Shown: positions 2,230 through 46,127 of the stretch, piece after piece
Layout of the letters: every line of letters starts with the position of its first letter
How positions within the stretch are numbered: position 1 is the stretch's first letter
DNA from: an uncultured Gammaproteobacteria bacterium
GTDB taxonomy: Bacteria; Patescibacteriota; Microgenomatia; UBA10105; UBA927
DNA: 64,000 nucleotides
NCBI GenBank assembly: GCA_964573695.1
Contig: CAZNKB010000001.1
Span: forward strand, 64,565-128,564
Direction of reading: 5' to 3'
Notes under the pieces: generated by a model
Seen by the model: only the letters and a program-made list of their open reading frames with translations
What the model was told of the DNA's origin: nothing
The model's database searches: none
Translations under genes and position numbers: made by a program

Positions 2230-4335
2230 TTAGACATTCTTCGCAATAATCTTTTCCTGAATATTTTTGGGAACTTCTTCGTAGTGACTCGGCTCCATAT
2301 AATATGTAGCCCGGCCTTTGGACAAACTCCGAAGCACTGTAGCATACCCTGACAGTTCGGCAAGCGGCACCATAGCCAGAATAACCGTAACTGTTCCCCG
2401 CTGCTCACTCCCCATAATCTGTGCACGTCTAGCGGAAAGATCGCCAATACAGTCTCCCATGTATTCATCGGGAGTGGTCACTTCCACCTTCATGATCGGC
2501 TCGAGTATTGTGGGATCTGCGTGTTTTACCGCATCCTGAAGCGCCATACTTCCTGCAATCTTAAATGCCATTTCTGACGAGTCGACGTCGTGATAACTTC
2601 CGTCATAGAGTGTGGCCGACATATCGACCAGCGGATAACCGGCAAGCACACCATTTTCCATGGCCTCGACGATACCCTTCTCAATCGGAGGAATAAACTC
2701 GTTCGGAACACTTCCCCCTTTGATTGCATCAATAAATTCAAATCCTTCTCCACGAGCCTTCGGCTCTATAGTAATCATCGCATGACCGTATTGACCTCTA
2801 CCTCCGGTCTGTCGGATATATTTCCCTTCTCCTTCAGCAAGCTTCTTGATCGTTTCCTTGTATGCGACTTGAGGTGCTCCGACATTTGCCTCCACCTTGA
2901 ATTCACGCTTCATGCGGTCAACCAAAATCTCCAAGTGTAACTCTCCCATGCCCCAAATAATTGTCTGGTTGGTTTCTTGATTGCTTTTGATTTTGAATGT
3001 CGGATCTTCTTCGGACAAACGCTGCAATGCATATCCCATTTTCTCCTGATCATTTTTGGTTTTGGGCTCAATAGCAAGCGAGATGACCGGATCGGGAAAC
3101 GTGATTTTTTCCAGTACGATCGGGTTTGTTTTGTCACAGAGGGTATCTCCGGTGATCGTATCTTTAAGCCCCACGACTGCGACGATTTCTCCTGCAAACG
3201 CTTCGCGGATTTCTTCCCGTTGGTTCGCGTGCATAAGAAGTAACCGTCCTACACGTTCTTCGGCACCCTTGCTCGAGTTATACGTATAAGAGCCTGACTC
3301 CAATTTCCCCGAATAGATACGGACGTAGGTCAGCTTTCCTACATGCGGATCAATCTGAATTTTGAACGCGAGCCCGGAAAAATGATCATCGCTCACGCGC
3401 TTCCGCGTCACATGCTCTTCGGTCTTAGGATGAATACCGCTTACTTCCGGAAGATCCAATGGAGACGGTAAATAATCAACGACTGCGTCGAGAAGCGGCT
3501 GAACGCCTTTGTTGCGAAGACTCGTGCCGCAATAGATAGGTACGAGCTTGTAAGCGATAACTGCCCGACGAAGTGCTGCTTTTAGCTCCTCTACCGTAGG
3601 CTCGGTACCCGCGAGGAATTTCTCCAGCAATGCGTCGTCTGTTTCGGAAATACGCTCAATCAAGTCGTTTCGGGATTTGGTCACTTCTTCCTTCAAATCC
3701 GCAGGAATTTCGGGGAGTTCGTCGGGGTGTGCGCCAAGATCATCGGTATTCCACACATACGCTTTAAGCGTGAGCAAATCGACAATACCTTTATAGGTCT
3801 GTTCCCTGCCGATCGGTACGACCATGACGGCGGTTCGGGCTCCCAGACGCTGTTCAATCTGCTGTATGGTATGTCGGAAATCTGCGCCGATTTTGTCCAT
3901 TTTGTTGACAAAACAGATACGCGGCACTTTGTACTTATCTGCCTGATGCCACACGGTTTCGGATTGACTCTGCACGCCTTCTTCCGCATCCAAAACGGTA
4001 ATGCCGCCGTCGAGCACGCGAAGAGAACGTTCCACTTCAGCAGTAAAATCCACATGTCCGGGCGTATCGATAATGTTAAAGCGGTACCCCTTCCAAAAAG
4101 TGGTCGTAGCGGCGGATACAATGGTGATGCCCCGCTCTTTCTCCTGCTCCATCCAGTCCATTTGGGTCGTACCTTCATCGATATCACCGATTTTGTAACT
4201 TCTTCCTGTGTAATAGAGGATACGCTCTGTGGTTGTGGTTTTGCCTGCATCGATATGCGCAATGATGCCGATGTTGCGTACTTTATCGAGTGGCACATCG
4301 CGGTTTTCTGTTACGGTTGTCTGTGGGTTTGCCAT
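2230..4335 (-). CDS. fusA: Elongation factor G
   Basis: 701 aa with [23 protein letters not shown] and NKMD motifs and EF-G domains IV-V. Confidence 0.97.
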
Positions 4336-5775: not shown

Positions 5776-6309
5776 ATGAATAACAAACTACTTATCATCG
5801 TGGGTGTTGTCGTTATTGGTACCCTTGGGGGGGTATATATCCGAAGCCAGCATTCAAACAACAATAACCAAATTGTGCCGAAACCCACGGGAGCCATGGA
5901 AAAAACAGAAAACGCTACAACAGAGCCGACCCGTGGCATGGTGGAAAAAACTGTAACACCGAGTGGTTCAACAAACAAAGACGAAGGAACAATGATGAAA
6001 AACGAATCACGGTATGTCGTGTATTCCAAAACGGCTTTTGAGACGGCCAAGGGGAAGAAGCGGATATACTTTTTTCATGCGCCGTGGTGCCCCACCTGCA
6101 GACCGGCTGACGCAGCTTTCCAAAAAGACGCCGCGCTTATTCCGGAAAACGTCGTCCTGTTTAAGACGGACTACGATACGTCGGCAGAGCTGAAAAAGCA
6201 GTATGCCGTTACCTACCAGCATACATTTATTCAGGTTGATGAGAATGGCCGCGAAGTGACAAGGTGGAACGGGGGCGCGATAGCGGAATTAACGGCAAAT
6301 ATTAGATAA
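5776..6309 (+). CDS. Membrane-anchored thioredoxin-family protein (WCPTC active site)
   Basis: 177 aa with an N-terminal TM helix and a FHAPWCPTC thioredoxin CxxC motif. A strong RBS is present. Confidence 0.7.
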   Translation: MNNKLLIIVGVVVIGTLGGVYIRSQHSNNNNQIVPKPTGAMEKTENATTEPTRGMVEKTVTPSGSTNKDEGTMMKNESRYVVYSKTAFETAKGKKRIYFFHAPWCPTCRPADAAFQKDAALIPENVVLFKTDYDTSAELKKQYAVTYQHTFIQVDENGREVTRWNGGAIAELTANIR

Positions 6310-8433: not shown

Positions 8434-9636
8434 TTATGGAGAAATAACAATCCGGTAAATCACACCGGACTTATCATCAGAAACATACAGCGTTCCTTTG
8501 TCATCAAACAGCACATCTACGGGCCTACCAATAGCTCCTCCCTCCTGCAGGAACCCGCTAATAAAATCCGATTCCCCGGTTTTGTTAAGCGACGCATCGA
8601 GATCAAAACGCACTACTTTATATCCCGTTGGCTCACTGCGGTTCCATGATCCGTGATACGACACAAGCAGATCCCCCCGATATTCTTTGGGCCAGCTATC
8701 CGGAATCACGGCGAGCCCCAAAGGCGCTGAATGCGCCTGAAAGGTGATATGCGGCGGTATACTTTCTGCACATTTTTTTTGAGCCGCATCGGACGAGTCA
8801 AACGACCGGTCATGAACGTTGTTATTATAACAATACGGCCACCCGTAAAACCCTCCGCTACGGACAATATTTACTTCCTCGAAAGGTGTATTGTCCCCCA
8901 ACAGATCACGCCCCATGTCAGTCGCCCACATATCGCGGCTTACCGGGTGCCAGATAAAAAACACGCTGTTACGGAGTCCCGACGCATACTCGCGAAAATC
9001 CTTCCCGTCAGGATTACTTACGTATATTTTTGCCCGCCGTGGATCTTTTTCCACACAAACGTTACAACTGGATCCTATGGAAACGTACAATTTTCCGTCC
9101 GGGCCGAATCCTATCGAACGGGAAAAATGATTGCCGCCGGCAGGCAGGTCCAGCAGTTTCTTTTTATTTGTTGCTTTTCTGGTCCCGACATTATAATCGT
9201 ATGCTGCAATCTGATTCGTTTCGGCAATATAAAGCTTGCCCTCGTAAAATGCTAACCCGTGCGGCAGATTGAGCCCGTCTATTACCGTGATCGTCTCATC
9301 GGACACACCGTCGTTATTTGAGTCAGGCAGCGCCACAACCTTGCCCTGCGACGGAACACTCGCAAGAAGCGTCCCCCGAGGATCCCAGATCAACACGCGC
9401 GGACTTACGAGGTCTTTGGCAAAGTATGAAAGGGAAAATCCCTCCGGCAACGTCAGGGGCAATCCCGTGGTGTTCGTAAATTTCTGACGCGGCGCCCCTG
9501 TAAACGCCGGAGCTTGTATAGCTGATGGGATTGGCCCGAACGCTGGTCTCCAACCACGCAGATTCCTATACCCGAACCACCCGCCATAAACGATAATGCC
9601 CAGTAGTGCTAGGAAGATAGCTATCCTGACCTTCAT
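8434..9636 (-). CDS. PQQ-dependent sugar dehydrogenase, YliI / sorbosone dehydrogenase-like beta-propeller
   Basis: 400 aa with an N-terminal TM or signal helix. Motifs PHGLAFYEGKLYIAE and GGFYGWPYCY are typical of soluble aldose sugar dehydrogenases. Confidence 0.7.
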   Translation of the reverse strand: MKVRIAIFLALLGIIVYGGWFGYRNLRGWRPAFGPIPSAIQAPAFTGAPRQKFTNTTGLPLTLPEGFSLSYFAKDLVSPRVLIWDPRGTLLASVPSQGKVVALPDSNNDGVSDETITVIDGLNLPHGLAFYEGKLYIAETNQIAAYDYNVGTRKATNKKKLLDLPAGGNHFSRSIGFGPDGKLYVSIGSSCNVCVEKDPRRAKIYVSNPDGKDFREYASGLRNSVFFIWHPVSRDMWATDMGRDLLGDNTPFEEVNIVRSGGFYGWPYCYNNNVHDRSFDSSDAAQKKCAESIPPHITFQAHSAPLGLAVIPDSWPKEYRGDLLVSYHGSWNRSEPTGYKVVRFDLDASLNKTGESDFISGFLQEGGAIGRPVDVLFDDKGTLYVSDDKSGVIYRIVISP

Positions 9637-20079: not shown

Positions 20080-20595
20080 TTACGGATTCAGAAGCCAAAT
20101 ATTATAATTGAGTACCGTAGCAAACGATACCCATGCCAAATACGGAAGCATGAGATACGAGCTTACCCGGTCGAGATCATGAAATCGTAAGGTAAGGAAA
20201 ATAACCAGCACCCAGATAATGGAGATATCCACAAATCCCAACGGGATATTACGCCCGCCGAAAAAAATAATAGACCACAATGTGTTGAACACCAAATGAA
20301 TAAGGAAAAGAAATACGGCGTTTCGCACCGGCTTATTTTTCATCCCTAACCTGCTGACCCGATATGCCGCTATACCCATGAGCGCGTAGAGCACAATCCA
20401 TACCGGGCTAAAAATCCAGCTAGGAGGATTAAACGAAGGCTTCGTGATCGCGGTATACCATGTGGGGATAGAAGAAACGGTAAATAGCGCCCCGATAATG
20501 CCCGCAGATTCGCAAAACGCAATCCAACTAATCAAATCCACCCAACGAACGGGCATACGTTTCGACGAATTCAGGCGCGGGCTGCGGCGTTTCAT
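20080..20595 (-). CDS. tspO: TspO/MBR tryptophan-rich sensory protein
   Basis: 171 aa with five TM helices and the WYxxLxKPSFNPPxW...VW..LYxLMGIA signature. Confidence 0.8.
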   Translation of the reverse strand: MKRRSPRLNSSKRMPVRWVDLISWIAFCESAGIIGALFTVSSIPTWYTAITKPSFNPPSWIFSPVWIVLYALMGIAAYRVSRLGMKNKPVRNAVFLFLIHLVFNTLWSIIFFGGRNIPLGFVDISIIWVLVIFLTLRFHDLDRVSSYLMLPYLAWVSFATVLNYNIWLLNP

Positions 20596-21517: not shown

Positions 21518-21844
21518 ATGAATATAAATATCCGCATGATTTATCTTTATTTGTTTTCCTTTGTCGGCTTGTTTACGGTCGTCATCGGCTCAGTCCGCAT
21601 GGTAGACCTGGGACTTAAAGTGCTCGTGTTCAAGGACGCCGATCGTTATGAATACTCCGCCGTGAAACCTCTGGATGATACTGGTGATGCAGTAGACGAA
21701 CAGGCGATGAAAGAACAAGCGGCTCGTGAACAGACCCGTAACCGGCAGCGCGAATTCAGCGGAGCAATCGCCATGATTGCAGTCGGGCTTCCACTCTATC
21801 TCTACCACTGGAAGACGATCCAGAAGGAAAACAAAAAACACTAA
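21518..21844 (+). CDS. Hypothetical two-TM membrane protein
   Basis: 108 aa with hydrophobic N- and C-terminal helices flanking a charged loop. Confidence 0.4.
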   Translation: MNINIRMIYLYLFSFVGLFTVVIGSVRMVDLGLKVLVFKDADRYEYSAVKPLDDTGDAVDEQAMKEQAAREQTRNRQREFSGAIAMIAVGLPLYLYHWKTIQKENKKH

Positions 21845-22482
21845 TCGTTCTCTACAATGAGAACGGTTGTAATACGTACCGGATTCACCGGTTTAGAATT
21901 TTCTCTTCCGTCCTCTATGGTGGGGGCTGATGCAATGGCATCAACAACTCCCATACCTTCGATCACTTTTCCGAAGATGACGTAATCGTGCGGCAAATTG
22001 GTTTCGGCATGCATGATAAAAAACTGACTGCCGTTTGTGTTGGGTCCTGAGTTTGCCATAGCCACTACACCCCGGACATACGACCCGCTAAATGGTTCAT
22101 CGTCAAATTTATATCCCGGTCCTCCGGTACCGTTGCCTTTGGGATCCCCGCCCTGGATCATGAACCCTGGTATCACTCGATGAAACGGTGTGTTGTCATA
22201 AAACCCCTTGCGGGCAAGGTACACGAAATTATTTACGGTCTTGGGCGTATCCTTGGCGGTAAGTGCAATGACGATCTTGCCGGCAGTTGTTTCCAGCGTC
22301 GCAGTATATTTTTTTGCAACGTCTATTTCCATATCTGGTGCAGCCGGACGATCAATCGGTTGTTGTGTAGGCTGTAGTATCTGTTGGTCTGTCATAGATT
22401 TTCCTTTCGGCATACGCACATAGATCACGGCTGCGCACAATAAGACTGCGACAACTGTTACCCAGAGATACGTTTGCTTCAT
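21841..22482 (-). CDS. ppiB: Peptidyl-prolyl cis-trans isomerase, cyclophilin type, with N-terminal membrane anchor
   Basis: 213 aa with FHRVIPGFMIQGGDP...GSQFFI cyclophilin motifs. Confidence 0.85.
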   Translation of the reverse strand: MKQTYLWVTVVAVLLCAAVIYVRMPKGKSMTDQQILQPTQQPIDRPAAPDMEIDVAKKYTATLETTAGKIVIALTAKDTPKTVNNFVYLARKGFYDNTPFHRVIPGFMIQGGDPKGNGTGGPGYKFDDEPFSGSYVRGVVAMANSGPNTNGSQFFIMHAETNLPHDYVIFGKVIEGMGVVDAIASAPTIEDGRENSKPVNPVRITTVLIVEND

Positions 22483-22925: not shown

Positions 22926-22954
22926 TTGCATGAAGTGCATGCACTCGGTATAGT
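22926..22954 (+). promoter_or_regulatory. Promoter for the zinc-ribbon repeat gene (leaderless transcript predicted)
   Basis: TTGCAT at 22926-22931, a 17-nt spacer and TATAGT at 22949-22954. The first ATG at 22963 lies about 8 nt downstream, so no room for an SD. Confidence 0.4.
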
Positions 22955-22962
22955 TGCTGCAT

Positions 22963-23511
22963 ATGACAGATACAACATGTCCCAAATGCGGCAATCCCTT
23001 AGGTCCGATCGTTGAAACCAAATCCGGCAAACAAATGCAGAAATGCAGCACCGGTCACTGGAATCCGGAAACGAAAAAGAACGAAGGCTGCGACTACGTG
23101 AAGTGGATCGTACCCGAACCCAAAAGTCTGGATGAAAAATGCCCCAAGTGCGGCAGTCCGCTCGTCATGATGGTAACGCGTTTCGGCAAAAAAATGAAAA
23201 AATGTTCGACGAACACCTGGAACCGGGAAACGAAAAAAGCCGAAGGCTGCGATTATGTGGAGTGGATTAACGGCAGCACCGAACCACTCGACGAGGATTG
23301 CCCGGAGTGCGGCAAAAAACTCGTACTCTACACAACGGCAAGCGGCAAGAAAATGAAAAAATGCTCAACCTCAGGGTGGGATCGGGAAAAGAAACAGGCC
23401 ACTGGATGCACATACGTGCAGTGGCTCAAACCAGGAGAATATCCCGTGGAACACAAAGCAAACGGCGAGGAATTTTTACCTCCGGAACCTCCCGACGCGG
23501 AAGACGCGTAA
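22963..23511 (+). CDS. Standalone protein of three tandem topoisomerase-type C4 zinc-ribbon repeats
   Basis: Three repeats of about 53 aa (about 159 bp each), each with CPKCG...KCST..W..ETKK.EGCDYV.WI. This resembles the zf-C4_Topoisom module at topo I/III C-termini. The ORF track starts at TTG 22954, but the ATG at 22963 is more likely. Confidence 0.6.
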   Translation: MTDTTCPKCGNPLGPIVETKSGKQMQKCSTGHWNPETKKNEGCDYVKWIVPEPKSLDEKCPKCGSPLVMMVTRFGKKMKKCSTNTWNRETKKAEGCDYVEWINGSTEPLDEDCPECGKKLVLYTTASGKKMKKCSTSGWDREKKQATGCTYVQWLKPGEYPVEHKANGEEFLPPEPPDAEDA

Positions 23512-24937: not shown

Positions 24938-25780
24938 TTACTTTTTCGACGATATATACTTACGCGCGGCCTTCACGGCGATACTACCGCCGGGGATAAA
25001 TATACCAGCTGCATCGGCTCCGATATCGAAGAGGAAATCCGTGTCCAGCACTTTACCCAAATACTCGCGGAATATTCTGCTACCGCTCGATACATTGCCG
25101 GTCACCCCGTCTATTTCCACGATCGCGTCTTTCCCTTTGCTTTTCCAGTGAAACTGAAATGCATACACCGGCCGGTAATACAGATCGACTGCGGAAACCT
25201 CGACGTGCTCTTCGAGAATGGTATCCGCCTGAATTCCCTTGATCATCTTAGAAAGCGCGTCGCGCATGATTGCCGATACCCGCGCCTGTGGAGGAACGAG
25301 AATGGAATCTTTGGCTACCATTTTCTCAATTTTTCCTTTCACCTCATCTGAGGGCTTATTCACGTATTCGGCCAGCTCAGCAAGATTCTTTCCACTCACT
25401 CCGTCCACATAGACAATCTCATGCTCTTCCTGTGTGCAGTGCTCGGTAACCGGCATATGGATATGTCCGTTTGTTTCCTGGTAGTCGGTACCGAGTACCG
25501 TCACGGACTTCACTTCTTTGCCACCGGTGCTTACCTGATATGTCGCATTGCGGTCATAGACATATTTCGCTTGTGCCGCCACATACCAGAACGGCTGGTA
25601 GCGGTGTTCGTTATAGGTAAGCTCAAAGTCATCGTCTTTGGGGCGTGAGAAAAATCCGGTTACTTTGCTCAACGCGTCAAACGCGCTGGATTTCCTTTCC
25701 CACGCCTTTTTTTCTGCGACAGATTGAGTTACCTGGTCCTTAAGAAGTAATATCCGCTGCTTGGCGACATCTATTTTCAT
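24938..25780 (-). CDS. Hypothetical protein (no recognisable family)
   Basis: 280 aa, soluble. Second gene of a two-gene minus-strand cassette immediately beside the R-M island. Confidence 0.5.
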   Translation of the reverse strand: MKIDVAKQRILLLKDQVTQSVAEKKAWERKSSAFDALSKVTGFFSRPKDDDFELTYNEHRYQPFWYVAAQAKYVYDRNATYQVSTGGKEVKSVTVLGTDYQETNGHIHMPVTEHCTQEEHEIVYVDGVSGKNLAELAEYVNKPSDEVKGKIEKMVAKDSILVPPQARVSAIMRDALSKMIKGIQADTILEEHVEVSAVDLYYRPVYAFQFHWKSKGKDAIVEIDGVTGNVSSGSRIFREYLGKVLDTDFLFDIGADAAGIFIPGGSIAVKAARKYISSKK

Positions 25781-25781
25781 A

Positions 25782-26576
25782 TCATTTACACGCTACGAGA
25801 AGCGTATGGTGTTTCTGACTACCGAGGTTTATATCAACTGAAGTACCATTGATCGTTTTGTCATCAAACATGACACGCATTGACCGGCTAACTCCAGGAA
25901 AATTATATCTCATCCCATAGATTTGGACTTGTATGTCGGACGGATCTGTTGCATCGACATGCACTTGAAGCGGTGGCAATTTTGCGACTGCCTCACCTCC
26001 TGCGGGAATAGACTGATTGGGCAACATGAGTCCTGGTATATTGACGGCAACACTTGCCGCAGGTTCTAATGGCGCACATCCGACGTTTTTGATGACGACA
26101 GATACTTCGGTTACTTTGAGCGCCACTACTCCGACTGCGATAAGAGTTAATATCCCCAGCGGCCCTTTGGCCGCTCCGAATATATTCCATGCGGATGTCG
26201 CTTTGTCCGCGATCGTTTTTTGAGAAAAATCATTGCCGATTTCCTTTTCTACACGAGTCACTTCTGATTTAAGCGTATTCCAGTATCCTAAGAAAAGGAG
26301 AAACGCCTTTTTCCGTTTCCTGTCCTCTGGGGAAAACTCAGGAATGGAGTCGAGAGCAAGGGATATGACTTCTCCTTTTTGTAAATGAGAAAATTTAGTC
26401 CCCGCTTTTGCGGCCGCATCAAGGGCTGCATTTAACTTCGGATGAATGTCGTATAACAACGTCCTGAGCGTCGGGATTGTGGAAGCATCAAGCGTTCCCT
26501 TTTGGAGAAGTTCCTGCGCAGCAGCAATACGTTTCTGCACCGTCTTCGCATCCATATATTGGAGGTATTGTAGCAC
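25782..26576 (-). CDS. Hypothetical single-pass membrane protein
   Basis: 264 aa with an N-terminal helical soluble region, one TM (GPLGILTLIAVGVVALKV) and a C-terminal extracytoplasmic region. Only 1 nt separates it from the downstream gene. Confidence 0.5.
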   Translation of the reverse strand: MLQYLQYMDAKTVQKRIAAAQELLQKGTLDASTIPTLRTLLYDIHPKLNAALDAAAKAGTKFSHLQKGEVISLALDSIPEFSPEDRKRKKAFLLFLGYWNTLKSEVTRVEKEIGNDFSQKTIADKATSAWNIFGAAKGPLGILTLIAVGVVALKVTEVSVVIKNVGCAPLEPAASVAVNIPGLMLPNQSIPAGGEAVAKLPPLQVHVDATDPSDIQVQIYGMRYNFPGVSRSMRVMFDDKTINGTSVDINLGSQKHHTLLVACK

Positions 26577-30543: not shown

Positions 30544-31017
30544 TTACACCTCCGAGGTGTAAGTGTCGAGGTCGGCAAGTATTTGAGCCGTGTGAACTAG
30601 TGGGTTCACTTTTTCATACACCTTCGCCACCTCACCCTTGGGATCGATGAGGTAGGTAATCCTGAGAATCCCGTCGTGGCTTCGCCCCATAAACTTTTTC
30701 TCTCCCCAGGCCTTGTAGGCTTTAATCGTCGAGAGTCTCTCGTCACTGAGTAACGGGAAATTCAAGTGAAATTTATCCGCAAACTTTTTGTGTGAGGACG
30801 CGCTATCCTTTGATACTCCCAGGACCACCACATTCTTCTTTTCAAGCTCAGCGGCATTATCCCGGAAACTGCACGCCTCTTTCGTACACCCCGGTGTATC
30901 GTCTTTGGGGTAAAAATAAAGAACTACCCATTTTCCACGATAAGCACGAAGCGTATGTACCTTACCGTTTTGATCCGCTAATGAGAAGTCATCTGCCACT
31001 TTATTCATTTGGGCCAT
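30544..31017 (-). CDS. bcp: Peroxiredoxin Bcp (thiol peroxidase, AhpC/TSA family)
   Basis: 157 aa with an FYPKDDTPGCTKEAC peroxidatic Cys motif. Confidence 0.85.
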   Translation of the reverse strand: MAQMNKVADDFSLADQNGKVHTLRAYRGKWVVLYFYPKDDTPGCTKEACSFRDNAAELEKKNVVVLGVSKDSASSHKKFADKFHLNFPLLSDERLSTIKAYKAWGEKKFMGRSHDGILRITYLIDPKGEVAKVYEKVNPLVHTAQILADLDTYTSEV

Positions 31018-36757: not shown

Positions 36758-37465
36758 TTATATCCTCACGAGCTTGGCTTTGACGTTTAACCGGTAAAGA
36801 TACGTTCCGGGAGGCACGCACGTTACCAGGGTGATATACGAGTCGTCAAACCGCTGTTCAAGCGGAGACAAATCCGTGGGTTCTACGACTACTTTGTCCG
36901 TCACGATATATTTATAGCTTAATCCATCGTAGGTAATATTGATATTCGCGCCGATTTTGATCGTCGGGAGAGTCGCAAATATTGTTTTATAATCCTTGGT
37001 CCCCCGAAAAAACTGCGGGAGAGTGGAGTGACCGAAAATAACCGTGTTTCCGTACTCACCGGGTAGCCCCGTACCTCCGTAATGAATAAGGCTTTTGCCT
37101 AAATCATCACCCGCGATGATGACGCTTGCGTCCGTTAACCCCAATGTCGGAATGGAGAGGGTATAACTATTGACGGGAGCGGATACCTTTTTTTGCGGAG
37201 ACGTCGGAAACCACGTATTGGGATCGGTTATATCCTTCTGCCCGGCAGCATAGGCTATCTGGCTTCCGGCATCCTTGCCACCCAAATCCGCTATCGGGCT
37301 TACTGTTTTTGCCAGTACTATCTGATCCACAAAAAAAAACGAAACAATGGGCCACATCGTCCACAAAATGATAAAAAACCCCAACGACATGAGGATATAC
37401 GAAACAACAACCGGTCGGGGAACCGGACGACGGGGCACCGCTTTTACATATCGGTACATTGCCAT
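36758..37465 (-). CDS. Sortase-family transpeptidase
   Basis: 235 aa with an N-terminal TM and a TLVTCVPPGT (TLxTC) catalytic Cys motif. Confidence 0.7.
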   Translation of the reverse strand: MAMYRYVKAVPRRPVPRPVVVSYILMSLGFFIILWTMWPIVSFFFVDQIVLAKTVSPIADLGGKDAGSQIAYAAGQKDITDPNTWFPTSPQKKVSAPVNSYTLSIPTLGLTDASVIIAGDDLGKSLIHYGGTGLPGEYGNTVIFGHSTLPQFFRGTKDYKTIFATLPTIKIGANINITYDGLSYKYIVTDKVVVEPTDLSPLEQRFDDSYITLVTCVPPGTYLYRLNVKAKLVRI

Positions 37466-37470
37466 ACCTA

Positions 37471-39882
37471 TTACTGTACCATGACGGTTACCGAGATGTT
37501 GCCGCTTTGTATGGGCAAACGGGATTTGGTCGGCGACAACGCAAATCGGAATTCTGCCCCGCTGACGCCTTTTGTCTCTTTGAGAATCTCAAGGGCAGTA
37601 TCCACGTCTTTACCGGCAAGCGCACGCTTGAGTCCGGCCTCATCGATGTGTGGCAGCGAAACGGCGGTCAATTTAGCAGTCAACGTAATAGTACCGTCCT
37701 TTTTCACGGTCACTCGAGAAACCGATACGTTCGTCTGCTCCGGCGCCAGGGAGTATCCTGCCGGCACCTTTGCTTCAACAAGCGTCGACAACGCGGCCTT
37801 GATATCACTGTCGGAAATACTCACCCCTGTCACTTTCACCGTCACTTTCCCGTGGAGCTCATTTGCTTCCTGATCGAGTTCCGCATCGAACACCTTTTCC
37901 GATACCTCAGTTTTGATCGTCTCGTCGATCAGCCTTTCACCGCCAGCCACGGCAAGCAGTTGCTGCTTGGCCTGTGTCACCAGATCTGTCGTCAGTGCTT
38001 TAACGAGTGCATCCTGATCCGCTCGCGATACGACCGTCACTTGCTTACTGGTCCCTCCGGTAAAGGCAGACTCATTGCGGGCTGATATTTGATTACCACT
38101 CATATTGGCAAAGGTAAACTCCGAACTTGCTCCCACATTACCGTTTGGACCTATATCGCGGGCGGTTACATTGGCGGCCGCCTTCCCGAACGTTATGGAG
38201 CCAATACTTTCGCTTGCCGATGCCACAGAAACATCGCTGTCGAGCGTAAATGCAATACCGCCTGTAGAAAGCACCGTACCTTTCGGCAATGTTTTGCCAC
38301 TGGTTACCTTGTTATAAATTGTCACTGTGCCCTTGGCAGGATCCCCCACGTTTTTTTTACCGGTAATGGCAATTGTTTTTTCTCCGCTTACGGACTGCTC
38401 TACTATCTTCCCCGGGATAATCTTGGTCGACGGATCTGCAGTAGTGGCCGATGTGTTGACCGTCACCGAGGTCGACTCATCGACGGATTGACTGGAAACC
38501 AATACGGTAACCATGACCTTTGGCAAGGCAAAGTAAAGTCCTCCCGCCACAAGGATAAAAAGGACAACGCCGATAATTACGGGAATTGTACCGCCCTTGA
38601 AACGCGGCATGTTCGACAACATACCCTTCACGGACCCAAATCCCGCGAACGAAAATGGGGGTAACTTGAATTTCGCGGGTAACGATATGGGTAACTTTTT
38701 GCCGGCAGACACAGGTGCTTTATGAGTCTGCGACGAGGTATGCTGATGCTCCAGCACGTCTTCATGACTAAACCCAAGGGCCTCCGGACTCACCACTTCC
38801 ACATTTGACAGTTCGTCATCTCCGCCCGTCATTTCAATAATTTGGGACTGCGTCTTTTCGGACTCATCGTCGCGCACCACTCCGTCCTCCGCAGTTTCTT
38901 CTTCGTCGTCTGGTGCGTCGCCTTGTGTGGTTGCTGCCTCATCCGTCTCTTCTTCCTCCGAAAATGCGCTTGACTCATCTTCCTCCTCTTCCGCTTCTTC
39001 TTCATCGATAACTTGAGTAGATGCCGTTGCGACAGCTGACTCCTGAGAGGTAGAGGGCATAGTAGGTTGAGCAACGGTCGAAACGCTTGCATCGGGTGAT
39101 TCCGTACGACTTTCACCGATTTCTTGAGACAACTCTGAAGCTCCCGCCAAAGAAATCGAGGTTAACAGTGTTTCGAGTGCAATACCTTCAATTTTGGGGA
39201 AATGCAGAAAATTCGCTCTCGTCGACCATGGATGCTTCAATAATTTTGAACGGACTTCCTCAAGTGTTGCCGTGTTGCCGCCATAGAGGAGTATGCGCGA
39301 GGGTAATACGTCACCGTCTTGGTGTTTTTTGAGAATCCCTTCAAGTGCAGCCGCCGGATCGTCATCGATGTCCATTGCGTCTTCGTGTGTCAGATTACCG
39401 ACGCGAAAAAGCGATATATGGGCACGCTTCCCTGAACATCCGAAAAGAATCACGCTGGGAGGAACGCCTTCGTCTTTTTTCAGTGAAAAAGCTATCGCCT
39501 GCGACAGGGGCACAAATCCGACCGGCGTAAGCTCAAGCATGACGGTAAGTTTCTTAAGGTGCGGGCGTATCGCCTCGAGGATATTGCCCTCGTGAGTCAG
39601 ATACGTGCCGGGCATGCCAAATACGGTTTTGGAGATTGCCTTCGCTACCCCTACCTTATCTTCGGCGGCAGAAAGCAGCCGATCCACTACCTGCGTGCGT
39701 GATTCCCACGTATCATCAGCCACCAATGCATGTGCAAAGCTGGAAATACGGGGCGTCTGTGAAGCGTCCAAGTGCCAGGTAGCGACGGCTGCGGCATCGG
39801 TATCGAGATAAAGCGAAAAAAAATAATTTTTCGCCTCTTCCTTCTTGGGCAATAAGTCGGTAAGCACGTGTGGAAGTTTCAT
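37471..39882 (-). CDS. Large bitopic membrane protein with an N-terminal actin-like (FtsA/PilM-like) ATPase-fold candidate, an acidic linker, one TM and a C-terminal extracytoplasmic beta-rich domain
   Basis: 803 aa. The N-terminus has phosphate-1-like YFFSLYLDTDAAAV and LLYGGNTA motifs. A poly-E linker (EEEAEEEEDE) follows, then a TM (IPVIIGVVLFILVAGGLYFALP), then about 330 aa rich in T/S/V/G. Confidence 0.45.
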   Translation of the reverse strand: MKLPHVLTDLLPKKEEAKNYFFSLYLDTDAAAVATWHLDASQTPRISSFAHALVADDTWESRTQVVDRLLSAAEDKVGVAKAISKTVFGMPGTYLTHEGNILEAIRPHLKKLTVMLELTPVGFVPLSQAIAFSLKKDEGVPPSVILFGCSGKRAHISLFRVGNLTHEDAMDIDDDPAAALEGILKKHQDGDVLPSRILLYGGNTATLEEVRSKLLKHPWSTRANFLHFPKIEGIALETLLTSISLAGASELSQEIGESRTESPDASVSTVAQPTMPSTSQESAVATASTQVIDEEEAEEEEDESSAFSEEEETDEAATTQGDAPDDEEETAEDGVVRDDESEKTQSQIIEMTGGDDELSNVEVVSPEALGFSHEDVLEHQHTSSQTHKAPVSAGKKLPISLPAKFKLPPFSFAGFGSVKGMLSNMPRFKGGTIPVIIGVVLFILVAGGLYFALPKVMVTVLVSSQSVDESTSVTVNTSATTADPSTKIIPGKIVEQSVSGEKTIAITGKKNVGDPAKGTVTIYNKVTSGKTLPKGTVLSTGGIAFTLDSDVSVASASESIGSITFGKAAANVTARDIGPNGNVGASSEFTFANMSGNQISARNESAFTGGTSKQVTVVSRADQDALVKALTTDLVTQAKQQLLAVAGGERLIDETIKTEVSEKVFDAELDQEANELHGKVTVKVTGVSISDSDIKAALSTLVEAKVPAGYSLAPEQTNVSVSRVTVKKDGTITLTAKLTAVSLPHIDEAGLKRALAGKDVDTALEILKETKGVSGAEFRFALSPTKSRLPIQSGNISVTVMVQ

Positions 39883-39888
39883 TCAGTT

Positions 39889-41805
39889 TTAGGTAAGCGA
39901 TGCGTAAATTCTTCGCACTCCTGCGCTACTTGCTTCCTCTTTTAGTATTGTAAAGTGACCCAACCCACCTGTAAAGCTGACGTGCGGCCCTCCGCAAAAT
40001 TCAGCGGAAAAATAATCACCTTTCCCTGCGCGTTCAGGATCAATTCCCTCAGAAAGTCCCACGAAATACACGCTGACACGATCAGGGTATTTGGCGCCGA
40101 ACTCCATTTGCGCACCGATCTTTTCCGCACTCTCCTTGGACATCTCTACCCGTGTTACCGGAAGATTCTGCTGTATTGCATGGTTTACGAGATCACTGAC
40201 TTTTTCTAATTCCTGAGAAGTAAATTTCTTTGAAAAGCTCACATCAATACGGAGACGCTCCGCTGTAATATTGCTTCCCCGCTGTTTGATCGTCGGATCG
40301 ACACATTTCTGAAGTGATGCCAAGAGCAGGTGATGCGCCGTGTGGAGGTCTGTCGTGGCTTTACTATGGTCCGCAAGACCACCCTTGAACATACCGGCAG
40401 CAGCAGTACGGGAAAGCTCCTGATGTTTACGAAATTCTCTTTGGAATTCCTCGCGATCCACCTGCTGACCTTTCTCAAGTGCCAATTCGTACGTAAGCTC
40501 CCACGGGAATCCGTAACTTTGCAGCAGATCAAATGCAACGGTACCGGTGATCGTGTCATGTTTTCCCAACTGTACCAGGCCGACTTTCAGCACTTTTTCA
40601 AAACGGGTGATCTCTTCTTTGAGAATCTGCCCCCTATCCAAAAATTCCTGGCTGTCCGGTTCAAAATACACGCCGCGATAAATCGCCCCTACCTCCTTGT
40701 AGACACTCATTCCTAACTCCGCTTTTGATCCGTTCCCCCCGAGCTGATGCATTTTTACGACCGCTCTGCGGATGAGACGGCGCAACACATATCCCTGCTG
40801 CTTATTCCCAGGAAACAATCCTTCGTTGATCATAAACACCGCGGCCTTGAGGTGATCTGCTATCACGCGCATCGCCTGGGTTTCTTTTATATCCCTGCCG
40901 TATGTAACGCCGGAAAACGTTTCGAGGTTGGTAATAATTCCTGCAAACAAATCAGTCCGGAAAACATCCGGATCATCTGCTACCGCCGCGGTCATCCGTT
41001 CCAATCCTCCGCCAAAATCCACATTTTTTTGCGACAACTCCTTTAGACTCCCGTCTTCCATTTTCTGATATTGCATAAACACCGAATTGGCGATTTCCAT
41101 AAATCTGCCGCAATCACAGTTTGGATGACACGCCTCCTGCTTGTACAAAGATTTTTCATGAAGTCCCAGTTCTTTTCCGAAATCAAAAAATACCTCACTG
41201 TCCGGCCCTCCCGGTTCTCCCGGCGGCATTTTTTCCGGCTCGCCCGACCTACTCCACCAGTTTTTACGGGCACTGTACGTAAATATGCGGGCATCCATGG
41301 GTGAGACGGATTCCCAAACCTTCGCCTCTATGCCGACTTTTTGGAATATTTGTTTCCATATTTCTATAGACTCTTCATCCTTAGGAATCCCTGAACTACC
41401 TTCTCTGGCAGAGCCAGATCCGGCTTCGCCGGAAAATACGCTTACATATAGGCGTTTGGGGTCAAGTCCCAACTCGCGAGTCAAAAAATCGAATATCCAT
41501 GGCAGCTGCTCTTTTTTGAAATAATCCCCAAGACTCCAGTTGCCAAGCATTTCAAAAAACGTGGTGTGGCGGTTGTCCCCGACCTCTTCGATATCCTGAG
41601 ACCGAAATGATTTCTGACTGTCGACAAGCCGAGTTCCCGCCGGATGCGATTGCCCCAAGAGATAAGGAACCAGAGGTTGCATACCGGAACTCGTAAATAA
41701 CGTAGTCGGGTCATTAAGCGGCACGATAGGCGCCGAGGGTATCTCTGCATGCCCCAACGCTTTGAAGTACTCTATATATTTACGCCTGACATCAGCCGAC
41801 TGCAT
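39889..41805 (-). CDS. alaS: Alanine--tRNA ligase (short form lacking the C-Ala domain)
   Basis: 638 aa with the class II catalytic core (HTTFFEMLGNWSLGDYFK) and an editing domain HxxxH...CGGPH. It ends right after the editing domain. Confidence 0.9.
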   Translation of the reverse strand: MQSADVRRKYIEYFKALGHAEIPSAPIVPLNDPTTLFTSSGMQPLVPYLLGQSHPAGTRLVDSQKSFRSQDIEEVGDNRHTTFFEMLGNWSLGDYFKKEQLPWIFDFLTRELGLDPKRLYVSVFSGEAGSGSAREGSSGIPKDEESIEIWKQIFQKVGIEAKVWESVSPMDARIFTYSARKNWWSRSGEPEKMPPGEPGGPDSEVFFDFGKELGLHEKSLYKQEACHPNCDCGRFMEIANSVFMQYQKMEDGSLKELSQKNVDFGGGLERMTAAVADDPDVFRTDLFAGIITNLETFSGVTYGRDIKETQAMRVIADHLKAAVFMINEGLFPGNKQQGYVLRRLIRRAVVKMHQLGGNGSKAELGMSVYKEVGAIYRGVYFEPDSQEFLDRGQILKEEITRFEKVLKVGLVQLGKHDTITGTVAFDLLQSYGFPWELTYELALEKGQQVDREEFQREFRKHQELSRTAAAGMFKGGLADHSKATTDLHTAHHLLLASLQKCVDPTIKQRGSNITAERLRIDVSFSKKFTSQELEKVSDLVNHAIQQNLPVTRVEMSKESAEKIGAQMEFGAKYPDRVSVYFVGLSEGIDPERAGKGDYFSAEFCGGPHVSFTGGLGHFTILKEEASSAGVRRIYASLT

Positions 41806-45278: not shown

Positions 45279-46127
45279 ATGACATGGTTTTTGCTGGCGG
45301 CCGCCAGCGCTTTTATTTTTGCCGCACTCGAGCTCCTCATGCGTGTCTTATCGGTCAAAACACATTCACCCCGAATTTTTTCACTCGTATTTAACCTTTG
45401 GGGAGCTGTGTTTGCCATTATGCTATTTATCGCCGAAGGAGGATCATTCGCTTCGCTCGCCAGCCTCACTCTCTCACAATATCTTTGGATTGTGGCCGCA
45501 ATCATTCTGTATGGGATCTACGAACGAAGCCAATTTTTCGCACGACGGGGCATGGATGCGGCGACCTTTTCAATCATAATGAAATTAAATACGGTCATTG
45601 GTTTTTTCGGAGCAATCTTGGTACTTGGAGAACCGCTGACTATCACAAAGGTTGTGGGTGTGGCGCTTATAATCGGCGCGAGTTTATCGCTTGTCTACAA
45701 AAATCCGAAATTTACCTTCAGCGAAGCGTTCATATATACGCTCGTGTGTGCCGCAACACTCGGTTCAACCGGGTTTGTAGATAAACCGGCGTCGTCACCT
45801 CTGCCGGCAACGCTTTATAGTTTTCTTGTCTGGTGCTTCCCGTTATTCATCATTGCATTTCCTCGCGTATCCAAAAAAGAATTCGTGCGAGAACTAAAAA
45901 TAGGCGGCTGGAAAGTCGCGCTTGCCGCGCTCTTAAACGTCGTCGGGTATATTATTTACATCCATGCGGTGACTCTTGCGGAAGCCTCCAGAGTAAATCC
46001 GATCGTAGCAACATATGGGATACTTACGGTCATCGGTGGTATTTTCATATTAAAAGAAAGGGATCACTTCTGGCGAAAAATAGCGGCAGGCATCGTCGCA
46101 TTTGCAGGCGTTATACTGCTTAAATGA
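45279..46127 (+). CDS. EamA/DMT-family transporter (paralog 2)
   Basis: 282 aa with 10 TM helices. Confidence 0.7.
   Translation: MTWFLLAAASAFIFAALELLMRVLSVKTHSPRIFSLVFNLWGAVFAIMLFIAEGGSFASLASLTLSQYLWIVAAIILYGIYERSQFFARRGMDAATFSIIMKLNTVIGFFGAILVLGEPLTITKVVGVALIIGASLSLVYKNPKFTFSEAFIYTLVCAATLGSTGFVDKPASSPLPATLYSFLVWCFPLFIIAFPRVSKKEFVRELKIGGWKVALAALLNVVGYIIYIHAVTLAEASRVNPIVATYGILTVIGGIFILKERDHFWRKIAAGIVAFAGVILLK

What the first reader, a model, noticed from the sequence alone, without database searches (positions are those of the whole stretch)
22926..23511. Leaderless standalone protein made of three topoisomerase-type zinc-ribbon repeats
Three repeats of about 159 bp each encode CPKCG...KCST..W..ETKK.EGCDYV.WI. 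This resembles the C4 zinc ribbons that normally decorate topoisomerase I/III C-termini and bind ssDNA, but here with no catalytic domain. The consensus -10 (TATAGT) sits about 8 nt before the first ATG, so the mRNA is probably leaderless. A free-standing topo zinc-finger array could act as a ssDNA/RNA-binding factor or as a topoisomerase accessory or mimic.
Basis: partly seen in the sequence, partly recalled or inferred. Interest (0 to 1): 0.5.

Follow-up and report, generated by a model that had tools for sequence, protein, structure and literature searches.

The report
Free-standing triple topoisomerase-type zinc-ribbon protein
A small, very strongly conserved gene of Microgenomates (candidate-phyla-radiation) bacteria encodes three copies of the zinc-ribbon DNA-binding module normally found at the tail of topoisomerase I, without any enzyme domain; it is a divergent relative of a known kind of protein (E. 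coli YrdD) and its cellular role is untested.

Summary
Window 22963-23511 (+) encodes a 182-aa protein of three ~53-aa repeats with 12 cysteines, plus an acidic tail carrying a near-invariant GEEFLPPEP motif.

- **Where the variant occurs:** it sits at the C-terminus of real type IA topoisomerases, including a code-25 CPR lineage. It is also fused singly to phage Erf and Rad52-type annealing proteins.
- **Distribution:** the named genome hits are almost all Microgenomates. The gene is monocistronic, has no conserved neighbours, and is more conserved than SSB.
- **Leaderless start:** a -10 box ends 5-9 nt before the ATG in 72 of 75 loci, and Shine-Dalgarno motifs are nearly absent. The same layout precedes about a third of the window's other genes, so it is a lineage habit.
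- **topA idea fails:** Levybacteria and Daviesbacteria TopA keep two canonical ribbons.

Most likely this is a zinc-dependent single-stranded-DNA binder with a partner-docking tail. It is a new variant of a known kind, of moderate interest.

The parts
22926..22931 (+). -35-like hexamer TTGCAT (3 of 6 matches to TTGACA)
   Evidence: Read directly. It lies 17 nt upstream of the -10 box. It is weak on its own. A -35-like hexamer at this distance is present in 31 of 75 homologous loci.
22949..22954 (+). -10 box TATAGT, ending 8 nt before the ATG. The predicted transcription start is at 22961-22963, giving a leader of 0-2 nt.
   Evidence: TANNNT ends 5-9 nt before the ATG in 72 of 75 homologous loci (mode 7 nt), against a mean of 14.5 and a maximum of 24 in 200 shuffles. 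Forty-two loci have TGnTAnnnT.
22963..23511 (+). Coding sequence, 182 aa plus stop: the triple zinc-ribbon protein
   Evidence: An identical protein was found on two other metagenome contigs. A 99% match lies on Ca. Gottesmanbacteria contig JAHFKN010000005.1.
22963..23118 (+). Zinc ribbon 1 (aa 1-52; Cys 6, 9, 28, 43)
23119..23277 (+). Zinc ribbon 2 (aa 53-105; Cys 60, 63, 81, 96). It is the most conserved repeat (TRFGKKMKKCSTN) and the closest to the canonical RFGKF..C ribbon.
23278..23436 (+). Zinc ribbon 3 (aa 106-158; Cys 113, 116, 134, 149)
23437..23508 (+). Acidic, predicted-disordered C-terminal tail (aa 159-182, pI about 4)
   Evidence: pLDDT is below 50 for residues 164-182. pI is.
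23464..23490 (+). Near-invariant short linear motif G-E-E-F-L-P-P-E-P (aa 168-176)
   Evidence: G168, P173 and P174 are invariant, and E169, E170, F171, L172, E175 and P176 are at least 90% conserved in 30 homologues. The motif [DE][DE][FYW][LIM]PP occurs in 73 ORFs within 960 kb of related loci, all of them members of this family.

Best explanation
This is a real, monocistronic and probably leaderless gene for a 20-kDa protein. The protein consists of three tandem four-cysteine zinc ribbons of the type that forms the single-stranded-DNA-binding C-terminal region of type IA topoisomerases, followed by a disordered acidic tail.

**Shown here:**
- The repeats are homologous to canonical topoisomerase ribbons and are predicted to adopt the same fold.
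- They differ by a 9-residue insertion that the model builds as an extra beta-hairpin in the second zinc knuckle.
- The same variant ribbon is used as the C-terminal DNA-binding region of real topoisomerases in other lineages, and as an appendage of phage single-strand annealing proteins.
- The protein is nearly confined to Microgenomates and is under very strong purifying selection.

**Inferred:**
- Each ribbon binds one Zn(II) through its four Cys.
- The ribbons use their lysine-rich beta-3 strand (GKKMKKC) and the conserved Trp and Tyr of the inserted hairpin and last strand to hold a stretch of single-stranded DNA or a single/double-strand junction. Such substrates arise at transcription bubbles, R-loops, and replication or recombination intermediates.
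- The GEEFLPPEP tail docks a partner protein, or folds back on the basic surface, in the way the acidic tails of SSB-type proteins do.

The protein would therefore act like the detached DNA-sensing arm of topoisomerase I, as proposed for E. coli YrdD. It would work alongside a canonical SSB and a TopA that keeps its own ribbons, not in place of them.
For: **Homology and fold**
- PF01396 scores 37.4 bits against a cutoff of 32, and 56 of 57 single repeats hit it.
- hhalign against canonical ribbons gives 97.6% probability and E 2.6e-12 over the full domain, with a 9-residue insertion.
- BLASTP against YrdD gives E 3e-6 with the same insertion.
- The full model matches 4RUL over 158 columns at probability 0.97.

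**Functional context of the variant ribbon**
- It forms the C-terminus of topoisomerases P0145, P0276, P0155 and P0230.
- It is fused to Erf (P0177) and Rad52/22 (P0154) annealing proteins. P0154 lies on a phage-like contig, as does the uncharacterised single-ribbon protein P0184.
- Topo I ribbons bind ssDNA and ss/ds junctions (PMC4678816; bioRxiv 10.1101/2024.10.07.617030).
- YrdD shows Zn-dependent ssDNA binding, as cited in PMC4678816.

**Constraint**
- Identity is 70-95% among the top 120 hits.
- Between two Microgenomates genomes the protein is 77.5% identical, against 67% for the SSB OB domain and 33% for bS6.

**Tail**
- The motif is near-invariant and family-specific.
- A similar acidic E-x-E-F-L tail ends the code-25 CPR topoisomerase.
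- Acidic/aromatic tails also end the phage fusions.

**Leaderless start:**

**Own transcription unit:** no neighbour is shared by more than 11 of 80 loci.
Against: - There is no biochemical, expression or TSS evidence for any member of the family.
- The aromatic residue on strand beta-3 that stacks on bases in E. coli Topo I is replaced here by Lys or Met, so the DNA-binding mode cannot simply be transferred (PMC4678816).
- Pfam matches cover only the first half of the ribbon model, and each repeat alone is below the cutoff.
- Conservation higher than SSB is more than plain ssDNA binding usually demands. It hints at a fixed macromolecular partner that was not identified.
- RNA cannot be excluded as the ligand.
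- Structure models are of moderate confidence only (pLDDT 68.5 and 79) and were built without zinc.
Confidence: 0.55

Rival explanations
1. It is a trans-acting C-terminal arm of topoisomerase I. Under this view, topA of these bacteria has lost its zinc ribbons and this protein supplies them as a separate subunit, giving a split topoisomerase I.
For: - The ribbons are of topoisomerase type, and there are three of them, as in E. coli Topo I D5-D7.
- In a code-25 CPR lineage the same variant ribbons and a similar acidic tail are fused to the topoisomerase.
Against: - TopA of Ca. Levybacteria (P0296, 707 aa) and Ca. Daviesbacteria (P0364, 744 aa) each carry two canonical PF01396 ribbons, at 91 and 99 bits. 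Both groups hold the standalone gene.
- There is no linkage with topA: none was found in 960 kb of flanks.
- E. coli likewise has both a complete TopA and the standalone YrdD.
- Not checked: the TopA of the very genome the window comes from.
Confidence: 0.1
2. It is an RNA-binding or ribosome- or RNA-polymerase-associated structural factor, and its extreme conservation reflects a fixed RNA or protein surface rather than DNA.
For: - It is more conserved than SSB and far more than bS6.
- It is lysine-rich.
- E. coli Topo I ribbons contact RNA polymerase (Cheng et al. 2003, as cited in PMC4678816).
- HflX lies next to the gene in this window.
Against: - The HflX neighbourhood is not conserved.
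- The best structural and sequence matches are to DNA-binding topoisomerase ribbons.
- All identified fusion partners are DNA enzymes or annealing proteins.
- There are no hits to ribosomal protein families.
Confidence: 0.15
3. It is a mobile or phage-derived gene, such as an anti-defence, defence or recombination accessory protein, rather than a core cellular gene.
For: - Single-ribbon relatives sit in phage early regions and are fused to annealing proteins.
- The genomic neighbourhood is variable.
- One homologue lies next to CBASS-like and restriction-modification genes.
Against: - The three-ribbon form is absent from IMG/VR, which holds only 4 single-ribbon loci, and from INPHARED phages.
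- There is no PADLOC hit.
- Identity of 70-95% across many Microgenomates lineages, with a uniform length, fits vertical inheritance of a core gene.
- Flanks are housekeeping genes.
Confidence: 0.05
4. It is a metal (Zn/Fe) buffering or redox-sensing cysteine-rich protein with no nucleic-acid role.
For: - It has 12 Cys in 182 aa.
- YrdD binds both iron and zinc, according to the title of Cheng et al. 2014 as cited in PMC4678816.
Against: Conservation extends well beyond the cysteines to basic and aromatic surface positions, the linkers and the tail. The domain's fusion partners are DNA proteins.
Confidence: 0.05

Closest known systems
E. coli YrdD (b3283; COG0551, 'ssDNA-binding Zn-finger and Zn-ribbon domains of topoisomerase 1')
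   Same: - It is a free-standing protein of about 180 aa made only of tandem topoisomerase-type C4 ribbons, in an organism whose TopA keeps its own ribbons.
- Domain-level similarity is BLASTP E 3e-6.
- YrdD is reported to bind ssDNA in a Zn-dependent way (PMC4678816, citing Cheng et al. 2014).
   Different: - YrdD is reported to have four ribbons (PMC4678816; Pfam matches three stretches), all with a short CxxYPxC knuckle. It scores 180 bits on PF01396, against 37 bits here.
- It has no 9-residue hairpin insertion and no GEEFLPPEP tail.
- It sits beside tsaC, smg and smf, a synteny absent here.
- The two are not orthologous. The families are confined to Enterobacteriaceae (YrdD, per PMC4678816) and essentially to Microgenomates (this family).
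C-terminal zinc-ribbon domains D5-D7 of E. coli topoisomerase I (PDB 4RUL, 9GDA; Pfam PF01396)
   Same: - Three consecutive 4-Cys ribbons.
- Homology is supported by hhalign at 97.6%.
   Different: - There is no catalytic core here.
- The base-stacking aromatic on beta-3 is not conserved.
- The second knuckle is longer, with a predicted extra hairpin.
- The linkers and each repeat are individually conserved.
Type IA topoisomerases carrying the same variant ribbon (P0145/P0276 from a UGA=Gly CPR lineage; P0155 'Mycoplasma sp.' MAG; P0230)
   Same: - They carry the identical variant motif: CPxCG...GKK.KKCS..W....K...GC.[YF][VI].W.
- P0276 also ends in an acidic EEDETEFLSS tail.
   Different: - The ribbons are fused to Toprim and Topoisom_bac domains.
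- There are one or two ribbons, not three.
- P0155 mixes one variant and one canonical ribbon.
Eukaryotic Zf-GRF fingers (APE2, NEIL3, TOP3A; PDB 5U6Z, 7JL5)
   Same: - Both have a long spacer between the third and fourth Cys, followed by aromatic-x-x-W after the last Cys.
- Both have a G-basic-basic-hydrophobic stretch before the third Cys.
- GRF fingers are ssDNA binders.
   Different: - There is no hit to the GRF Pfam model. Only PF23549 (GRF_2) appears, at 16 bits against a cutoff of 27.
- The first knuckle is CPxCG, as in topoisomerase ribbons.
- The structural match is weaker than to Topo I.

Membership tests
Topoisomerase C4 zinc ribbon (Pfam PF01396, Zn_ribbon_Top1) | Four zinc-ligand cysteines arranged as CxxC ... 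C-x(n)-C in each unit | tested here: met
   There are 12 Cys, four per repeat. Eleven are invariant and C28 is at least 90% conserved in 30 homologues.
Topoisomerase C4 zinc ribbon (Pfam PF01396, Zn_ribbon_Top1) | Score above the family's gathering threshold | tested here: met
   The whole protein scores 37.4 bits against a cutoff of 32. This pass is marginal: single repeats reach only about 24.5 bits and match only profile positions 1-20 of 39.
Topoisomerase C4 zinc ribbon (Pfam PF01396, Zn_ribbon_Top1) | Homology over the whole domain to canonical ribbons | tested here: met
   hhalign of the repeat profile against YrdD and TopA ribbons gives 97.6% probability and E 2.6e-12. Columns 2-48 align to 1-38, with one 9-residue insertion.
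Topoisomerase C4 zinc ribbon (Pfam PF01396, Zn_ribbon_Top1) | Four-stranded antiparallel sheet with the Zn site at one end | tested here: met
Topoisomerase C4 zinc ribbon (Pfam PF01396, Zn_ribbon_Top1) | Aromatic residue on strand beta-3 that stacks on ssDNA bases (E. coli Topo I, PMC4678816) | tested here: not met
   The aligned position is Lys or Met (GKKMKKC against GKF(L/I)xC). Conserved Trp and Tyr lie elsewhere.
Topoisomerase C4 zinc ribbon (Pfam PF01396, Zn_ribbon_Top1) | Occurrence at the C-terminus of type IA topoisomerases | tested here: met
   The variant ribbon is found C-terminal to Toprim and Topoisom_bac domains in P0145, P0155 and P0230. P0276 and the fragment P0259 carry it after Topoisom_bac.
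Topoisomerase C4 zinc ribbon (Pfam PF01396, Zn_ribbon_Top1) | Zn(II) binding and ssDNA binding | not testable with these tools
   This needs metal analysis and EMSA on purified protein.
YrdD-like free-standing ribbon proteins (orthology with E. coli YrdD) | Ribbon-only architecture without a catalytic domain | tested here: met
YrdD-like free-standing ribbon proteins (orthology with E. coli YrdD) | Full-length sequence relatedness and the same number and type of ribbons | tested here: not met
   Only single-ribbon local alignments were found, at E 3e-6. There are three variant ribbons here, against YrdD's canonical ribbons (three Pfam stretches; four according to PMC4678816).
YrdD-like free-standing ribbon proteins (orthology with E. 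coli YrdD) | Conserved neighbourhood (tsaC-yrdD-smg-smf) | tested here: not met
   No neighbour is shared by more than 11 of 80 loci, and none of those genes was recognised among the recurrent neighbour clusters.
Zf-GRF zinc finger | Match to the GRF family model | tested here: not met
OB-fold bacterial SSB | OB fold and a C-terminal ...[DE][LIM]PF tip | tested here: not met
   The predicted fold is an all-ribbon one, and the tail motif is internal and different. Canonical SSBs ending in MPF or LPF are encoded near the gene in L058 and L069.
Leaderless mRNA | Promoter -10 element within about 10 nt of an AUG start, and no Shine-Dalgarno sequence | tested here: met
   In the window, TATAGT is followed by 8 nt and then ATG. 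Across homologues, 72 of 75 loci have the -10 box and 3 of 75 have an SD-like motif.
Leaderless mRNA | Mapped transcription start at or within a few nt of the start codon | not testable with these tools
   This needs dRNA-seq or 5' RACE.

The most novel reading that the evidence does not exclude
The protein is an essential, Microgenomates-specific hub. It would recognise unwound DNA, for example at transcription bubbles or R-loops, or during replication restart. It would recruit a conserved partner through the GEEFLPPEP peptide, acting as a non-OB counterpart of SSB that evolved from the detached arm of a CPR-type topoisomerase I. This would explain why it is more conserved than SSB itself.
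Probability: 0.15. Interest if true: 0.6.

Novelty: new variant of a known kind. Interest (0 to 1): 0.35.

Why it matters
**Biology of the lineage.** Microgenomates are uncultivated bacteria with minimal genomes, so a gene kept at 70-95% identity across the class is likely to matter to them. That conservation exceeds SSB in the one genome pair compared. Yet nothing beyond an automatic domain label exists for this gene.

**The domain.** The analysis defines a distinct hairpin-bearing subtype of the topoisomerase zinc ribbon. It shows that this subtype is reused in CPR topoisomerases and in phage annealing proteins. It also identifies a candidate docking peptide that could be used to fish for the partner.

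**Wider point.** Promoter-at-the-start-codon layout looks widespread in this genome and in relatives. This bears on gene calling and on how translation starts in CPR bacteria.

**Limit.** None of this overturns current understanding. The kind of protein is already known (YrdD).

Tried and rejected
- **topA without ribbons.** No topA lies in the window's large ORFs or in 960 kb of related loci. A database search then turned up Levybacteria and Daviesbacteria TopA, each with two canonical ribbons. The split-topoisomerase idea is rejected for those groups.
- **SSB replacement.** Rejected. Canonical rpsF-ssb operons lie near the gene in L058 and L069.
- **Conserved operon partner.** None found.
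- **Defence system.** No PADLOC hit.
- **Phage gene.** No INPHARED match, and only four single-ribbon loci in IMG/VR.
- **PDB by sequence.** Nothing significant; Topo I scores E 0.57.
- **NCBIfam.** Only sub-threshold ribbon hits.
- **PHROGs.** Nothing for the protein itself beyond a weak hit to a family of unknown function.
- **Tail motif shared with other proteins.** It is not shared.
- **Literature.** Searches for Patescibacteria or Microgenomates with 'zinc ribbon', and for leaderless translation in Patescibacteria, found nothing relevant. The YrdD paper itself is not held.
- **AFDB fold search.** The library was unavailable.
- **Tandem Repeats Finder.** It does not see the repeats at the DNA level.
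- **Terminator.** No intrinsic terminator is predicted after the stop codon. The next gene converges on it.
Full report
**What is in the sequence**

Window 22963-23511 (+) is an open reading frame of 182 codons plus stop. It starts at an ATG. An in-frame TTG nine bases upstream overlaps the -10 box and has no counterpart in most relatives.

The protein has three repeats of about 53 residues: aa 1-52, 53-105 and 106-158. They are 47-65% identical to one another, with 23 invariant columns. Repeat 1 against repeat 3 gives BLASTP E 5e-16. The DNA copies have diverged too far for Tandem Repeats Finder to call them.

A 24-residue acidic tail (pI about 4) follows.

Upstream lie TTGCAT (22926-22931), a 17-nt spacer, TATAGT (22949-22954), then 8 nt and the ATG.

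**Source and distribution**

A 99%-identical copy lies on contig JAHFKN010000005.1 of a Candidatus Gottesmanbacteria MAG. The window also carries fusA, rpoB, rpoC, alaS, ftsK, rnj and pnp. It is therefore ordinary chromosomal DNA of a Microgenomates (CPR/Patescibacteria) bacterium.

A word-indexed search of 5.8 billion proteins found about 2,100 relatives. The best 120 are nearly all 175-200 aa and 70-95% identical.

Named genomes are almost all Microgenomates: Gottesman-, Levy-, Collier-, Davies-, Shapiro-, Woese-, Woyke-, Chisholm- and Roizmanbacteria. NCBI already calls the family 'topoisomerase DNA-binding C4 zinc finger domain-containing protein', and JGI calls it 'ssDNA-binding Zn-finger/Zn-ribbon topoisomerase 1'.

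An exhaustive HMMER scan with a single-repeat profile found only 289 clusters at E ≤ 0.001. It covered 1.84 billion cluster representatives (50% identity). The three-repeat architecture collapsed essentially into one full-length cluster. This is a narrow, tight family.

**Is it a topoisomerase-type ribbon?**

The evidence says yes, with a twist.

- PF01396 is the best Pfam family and passes its threshold for the whole protein (37.4 against 32 bits). However, every repeat matches only the first half of the model and is sub-threshold on its own.
- A profile of 57 single repeats was compared with canonical ribbons from E. coli YrdD, Levybacteria and Daviesbacteria TopA, and a Mycoplasma-MAG topoisomerase. 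It gave 97.6% probability and E 2.6e-12 over the entire domain.
- That alignment contains one 9-residue insertion between the third and fourth cysteines: CST..W..ETKK..GC against CSxYPxC. BLASTP against YrdD shows the same gap.
- A single-repeat AlphaFold model (pLDDT 79) builds the insertion as an extra short hairpin.
- The three-domain model (pLDDT 68.5, pTM 0.33, so the domains are flexibly linked) has one meaningful Foldseek hit. This is 4RUL, full-length E. coli Topo I with ssDNA, at probability 0.97 over 158 aligned columns.
- Sequence search of the PDB alone is not significant.

A variable spacer in the second knuckle is a recognised property of these ribbons (PMC10969213).

**Where else the variant ribbon occurs**

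This is the most informative result.

The same hairpin-bearing ribbon forms the C-terminus of genuine type IA topoisomerases with Toprim and Topoisom_bac domains. These are P0145 (769 aa), P0155 (678 aa, NCBI 'Mycoplasma sp.' MAG, with one variant ribbon followed by one canonical ribbon) and P0230 (654 aa).

P0145's relative P0276 comes from a 21%-GC contig. Its gene has 25 in-frame TGA codons. Reading TGA as glycine (table 25) restores GIGRPSTYE and CPKCG. The organism is therefore a UGA=Gly CPR lineage; Gracilibacteria and Absconditabacteria are the groups known, from established knowledge, to use that code.

That topoisomerase ends with two variant ribbons and an acidic tail, SEEDETEFLSS.

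Single copies of the ribbon are also appended to other proteins:

- an Erf protein (P0177);
- a Rad52/22-family protein (P0154);
- a Rho_N-domain protein (P0139);
- a set of uncharacterised proteins of 100-200 aa.

P0154 and the uncharacterised single-ribbon protein P0184 lie on phage-like contigs with terminase, ParB, YopX, NinG and many small early genes.

IMG/VR holds only four loci, each with a single ribbon. INPHARED holds none. So the ribbon is a portable module attached to enzymes and annealing proteins that act on single-stranded DNA. The three-ribbon protein is the cellular, free-standing form.

**Constraint and anatomy**

In 30 homologues, each of the three repeats keeps its own conserved features, the linkers are conserved, and the tail carries a near-invariant G-E-E-F-L-P-P-E-P. 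The tail is predicted to be disordered.

The motif [DE][DE][FYW][LIM]PP occurs in 73 ORFs in 960 kb of related loci. Every one is a member of this family.

Between two Microgenomates genomes (L058 and L069) the protein is 77.5% identical. The SSB OB domain is 67% identical and ribosomal protein bS6 is 33%. That is unusually strong purifying selection for a small nucleic-acid binder.

**Surroundings**

The gene lies between a divergent DUF4112 gene and a convergent small ORF followed by hflX. TspO, a cupin and a cyclophilin lie further upstream.

Across 80 loci, no neighbouring gene family is shared by more than 11 loci. The gene is thus its own transcription unit with no operon partner. No terminator is predicted downstream.

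**Leaderless start**

- In 72 of 75 distinct homologous loci, a TANNNT hexamer ends 5-9 nt before the ATG (mode 7). Shuffles give a mean of 14.5 and a maximum of 24.
- Forty-two loci have the extended TGnTAnnnT form.
- Only 3 carry a Shine-Dalgarno-like tetramer.

Conservation of a promoter element at a fixed distance from the start codon, together with the absence of an SD, strongly supports a leader of 0-2 nt.

The same signature precedes 14 of 43 other long ORFs in the window, including fusA, alaS, the TspO gene and the cyclophilin gene. Other genes, such as those at 956-2143 and 46177-47160, have clear AAGGAGG sites. Leaderless initiation therefore looks like a habit of the lineage and not a feature of this gene. 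I found no paper describing it for Patescibacteria.

**What it probably does**

[quoted passage not shown] YrdD, the free-standing ribbon protein of Enterobacteriaceae, is reported to bind ssDNA in a Zn-dependent manner (PMC4678816, citing Cheng et al. 2014).

Given the homology, the fold and the company the variant ribbon keeps, the best-supported mechanism has two parts:

- Three Zn-stabilised ribbons grip single-stranded DNA or a junction.
- An acidic, aromatic and proline-rich tail contacts a partner or folds back on the basic surface. This would resemble the tails of bacterial SSB, T4 gp32 and T7 gp2.5 (established knowledge; an inference here).

Two cautions apply. The base-stacking aromatic of E. 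coli Topo I strand beta-3 is replaced by Lys or Met. The binding mode may therefore be more electrostatic and may use the conserved Trp and Tyr of the insertion and last strand. RNA is also not excluded as the ligand.

**Ideas tested and set aside**

- **The protein supplies ribbons missing from topA.** Not supported. Levybacteria TopA (P0296, 707 aa) and Daviesbacteria TopA (P0364, 744 aa) each have two canonical ribbons, at 91 and 99 bits.
- **It replaces SSB.** Not supported. Canonical SSBs ending in MPF or LPF sit in rpsF-ssb operons near the gene in two genomes.
- **Defence or phage origin.** Unsupported.

**Comparison and novelty**

It works like, and is built like, YrdD and the Topo I C-terminal arm. 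It is not an orthologue of YrdD, for four reasons:

- a different ribbon subtype;
- a different synteny;
- a different ribbon number: YrdD has three by Pfam or four per PMC4678816;
- only domain-level similarity.

I file it as a new variant of a known kind: a hairpin-bearing subfamily of PF01396 ribbons in a free-standing triple array with a conserved tail, found almost only in Microgenomates.

Interest is moderate. The class of protein is known and already labelled by annotation pipelines. The exceptional conservation and the unassigned docking motif are the parts worth following.

Noticed in passing
Window, starts of 2230-4335(-), 8434-9636(-), 20080-20595(-), 21841-22482(-), 30544-31017(-), 36758-37465(-), 39889-41805(-), 45279-46127(+), 55820-56920(-), 56937-59153(-) and others: About a third of the other long ORFs (14 of 43) have a -10-like TANNNT ending 5-9 nt before the ATG and no Shine-Dalgarno sequence. 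Other genes (956-2143, 5776-6309, 46177-47160, 62411-63574) have strong AAGGAGG sites. This suggests widespread leaderless initiation in this Gottesmanbacteria genome. I found no paper describing this for Patescibacteria.
   Followed up: partly
L094:3001-5352 (Logan SRR943317 contig, GC 21%): This type IA topoisomerase gene has 25 in-frame TGA codons. Translation with table 25 (UGA=Gly) restores GIGRPSTYE and CPKCG. It therefore comes from a code-25 CPR lineage, and the database proteins P0145 and P0276 carry Trp where Gly belongs. Its C-terminus has two of the variant ribbons plus an acidic EEDETEFLSS tail.
   Followed up: yes
L088:7001-7621 and L089:1726-2277; proteins P0154, P0158, P0177, P0139, P0149, P0173, P0184, P0199: Single copies of the variant ribbon are fused to Erf, Rad52/22-like and Rho_N domains. 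They also occur in an uncharacterised family of about 170-200 aa with a conserved N-terminal domain and a C-terminal helical domain. P0154 and P0184 lie on phage-like contigs (terminase, ParB, YopX, NinG). Several of these proteins end in acidic/aromatic tails such as EEEDYPFPEEEL or DETPDF, which recall SSB tips.
   Followed up: partly
Loci L008, L013-L015, L020-L022, L027 and many others: Many TPA_asm MAG records titled 'uncultured Gammaproteobacteria' or 'uncultured Pseudomonadales' encode this otherwise Microgenomates-specific protein at about 66-90% identity. Their organism labels are probably placeholders or errors.
   Followed up: no
Window 37471-39882(-), 24938-25780(-), 25782-26576(-): An 803-aa ORF and two adjacent ORFs of 280 and 264 aa have no Pfam match at the thresholds used. 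They are uncharacterised proteins close to the finding.
   Followed up: no
L082 (Ca. Chisholmbacteria), upstream of 6001: This is one of the few homologues without the -10 box at the start codon. It has an AAAGGA Shine-Dalgarno-like site 7 nt before the ATG, so the leaderless layout has been replaced at least once.
   Followed up: no
P0045 (alignment, repeat 1): One homologue reads RWLKGSW where all others have RCSTGSW. It thus lacks the third cysteine of ribbon 1. This is either a sequencing or assembly error, or a ribbon that has lost its zinc site.
   Followed up: no
Window 20080-20595(-); L004:7484-7936(-): A TspO/MBR gene lies 2.4 kb upstream of the ribbon gene in the window and directly upstream of it in L004. 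It recurs in 6 of 80 loci. This is most likely residual synteny, not a functional link.
   Followed up: partly
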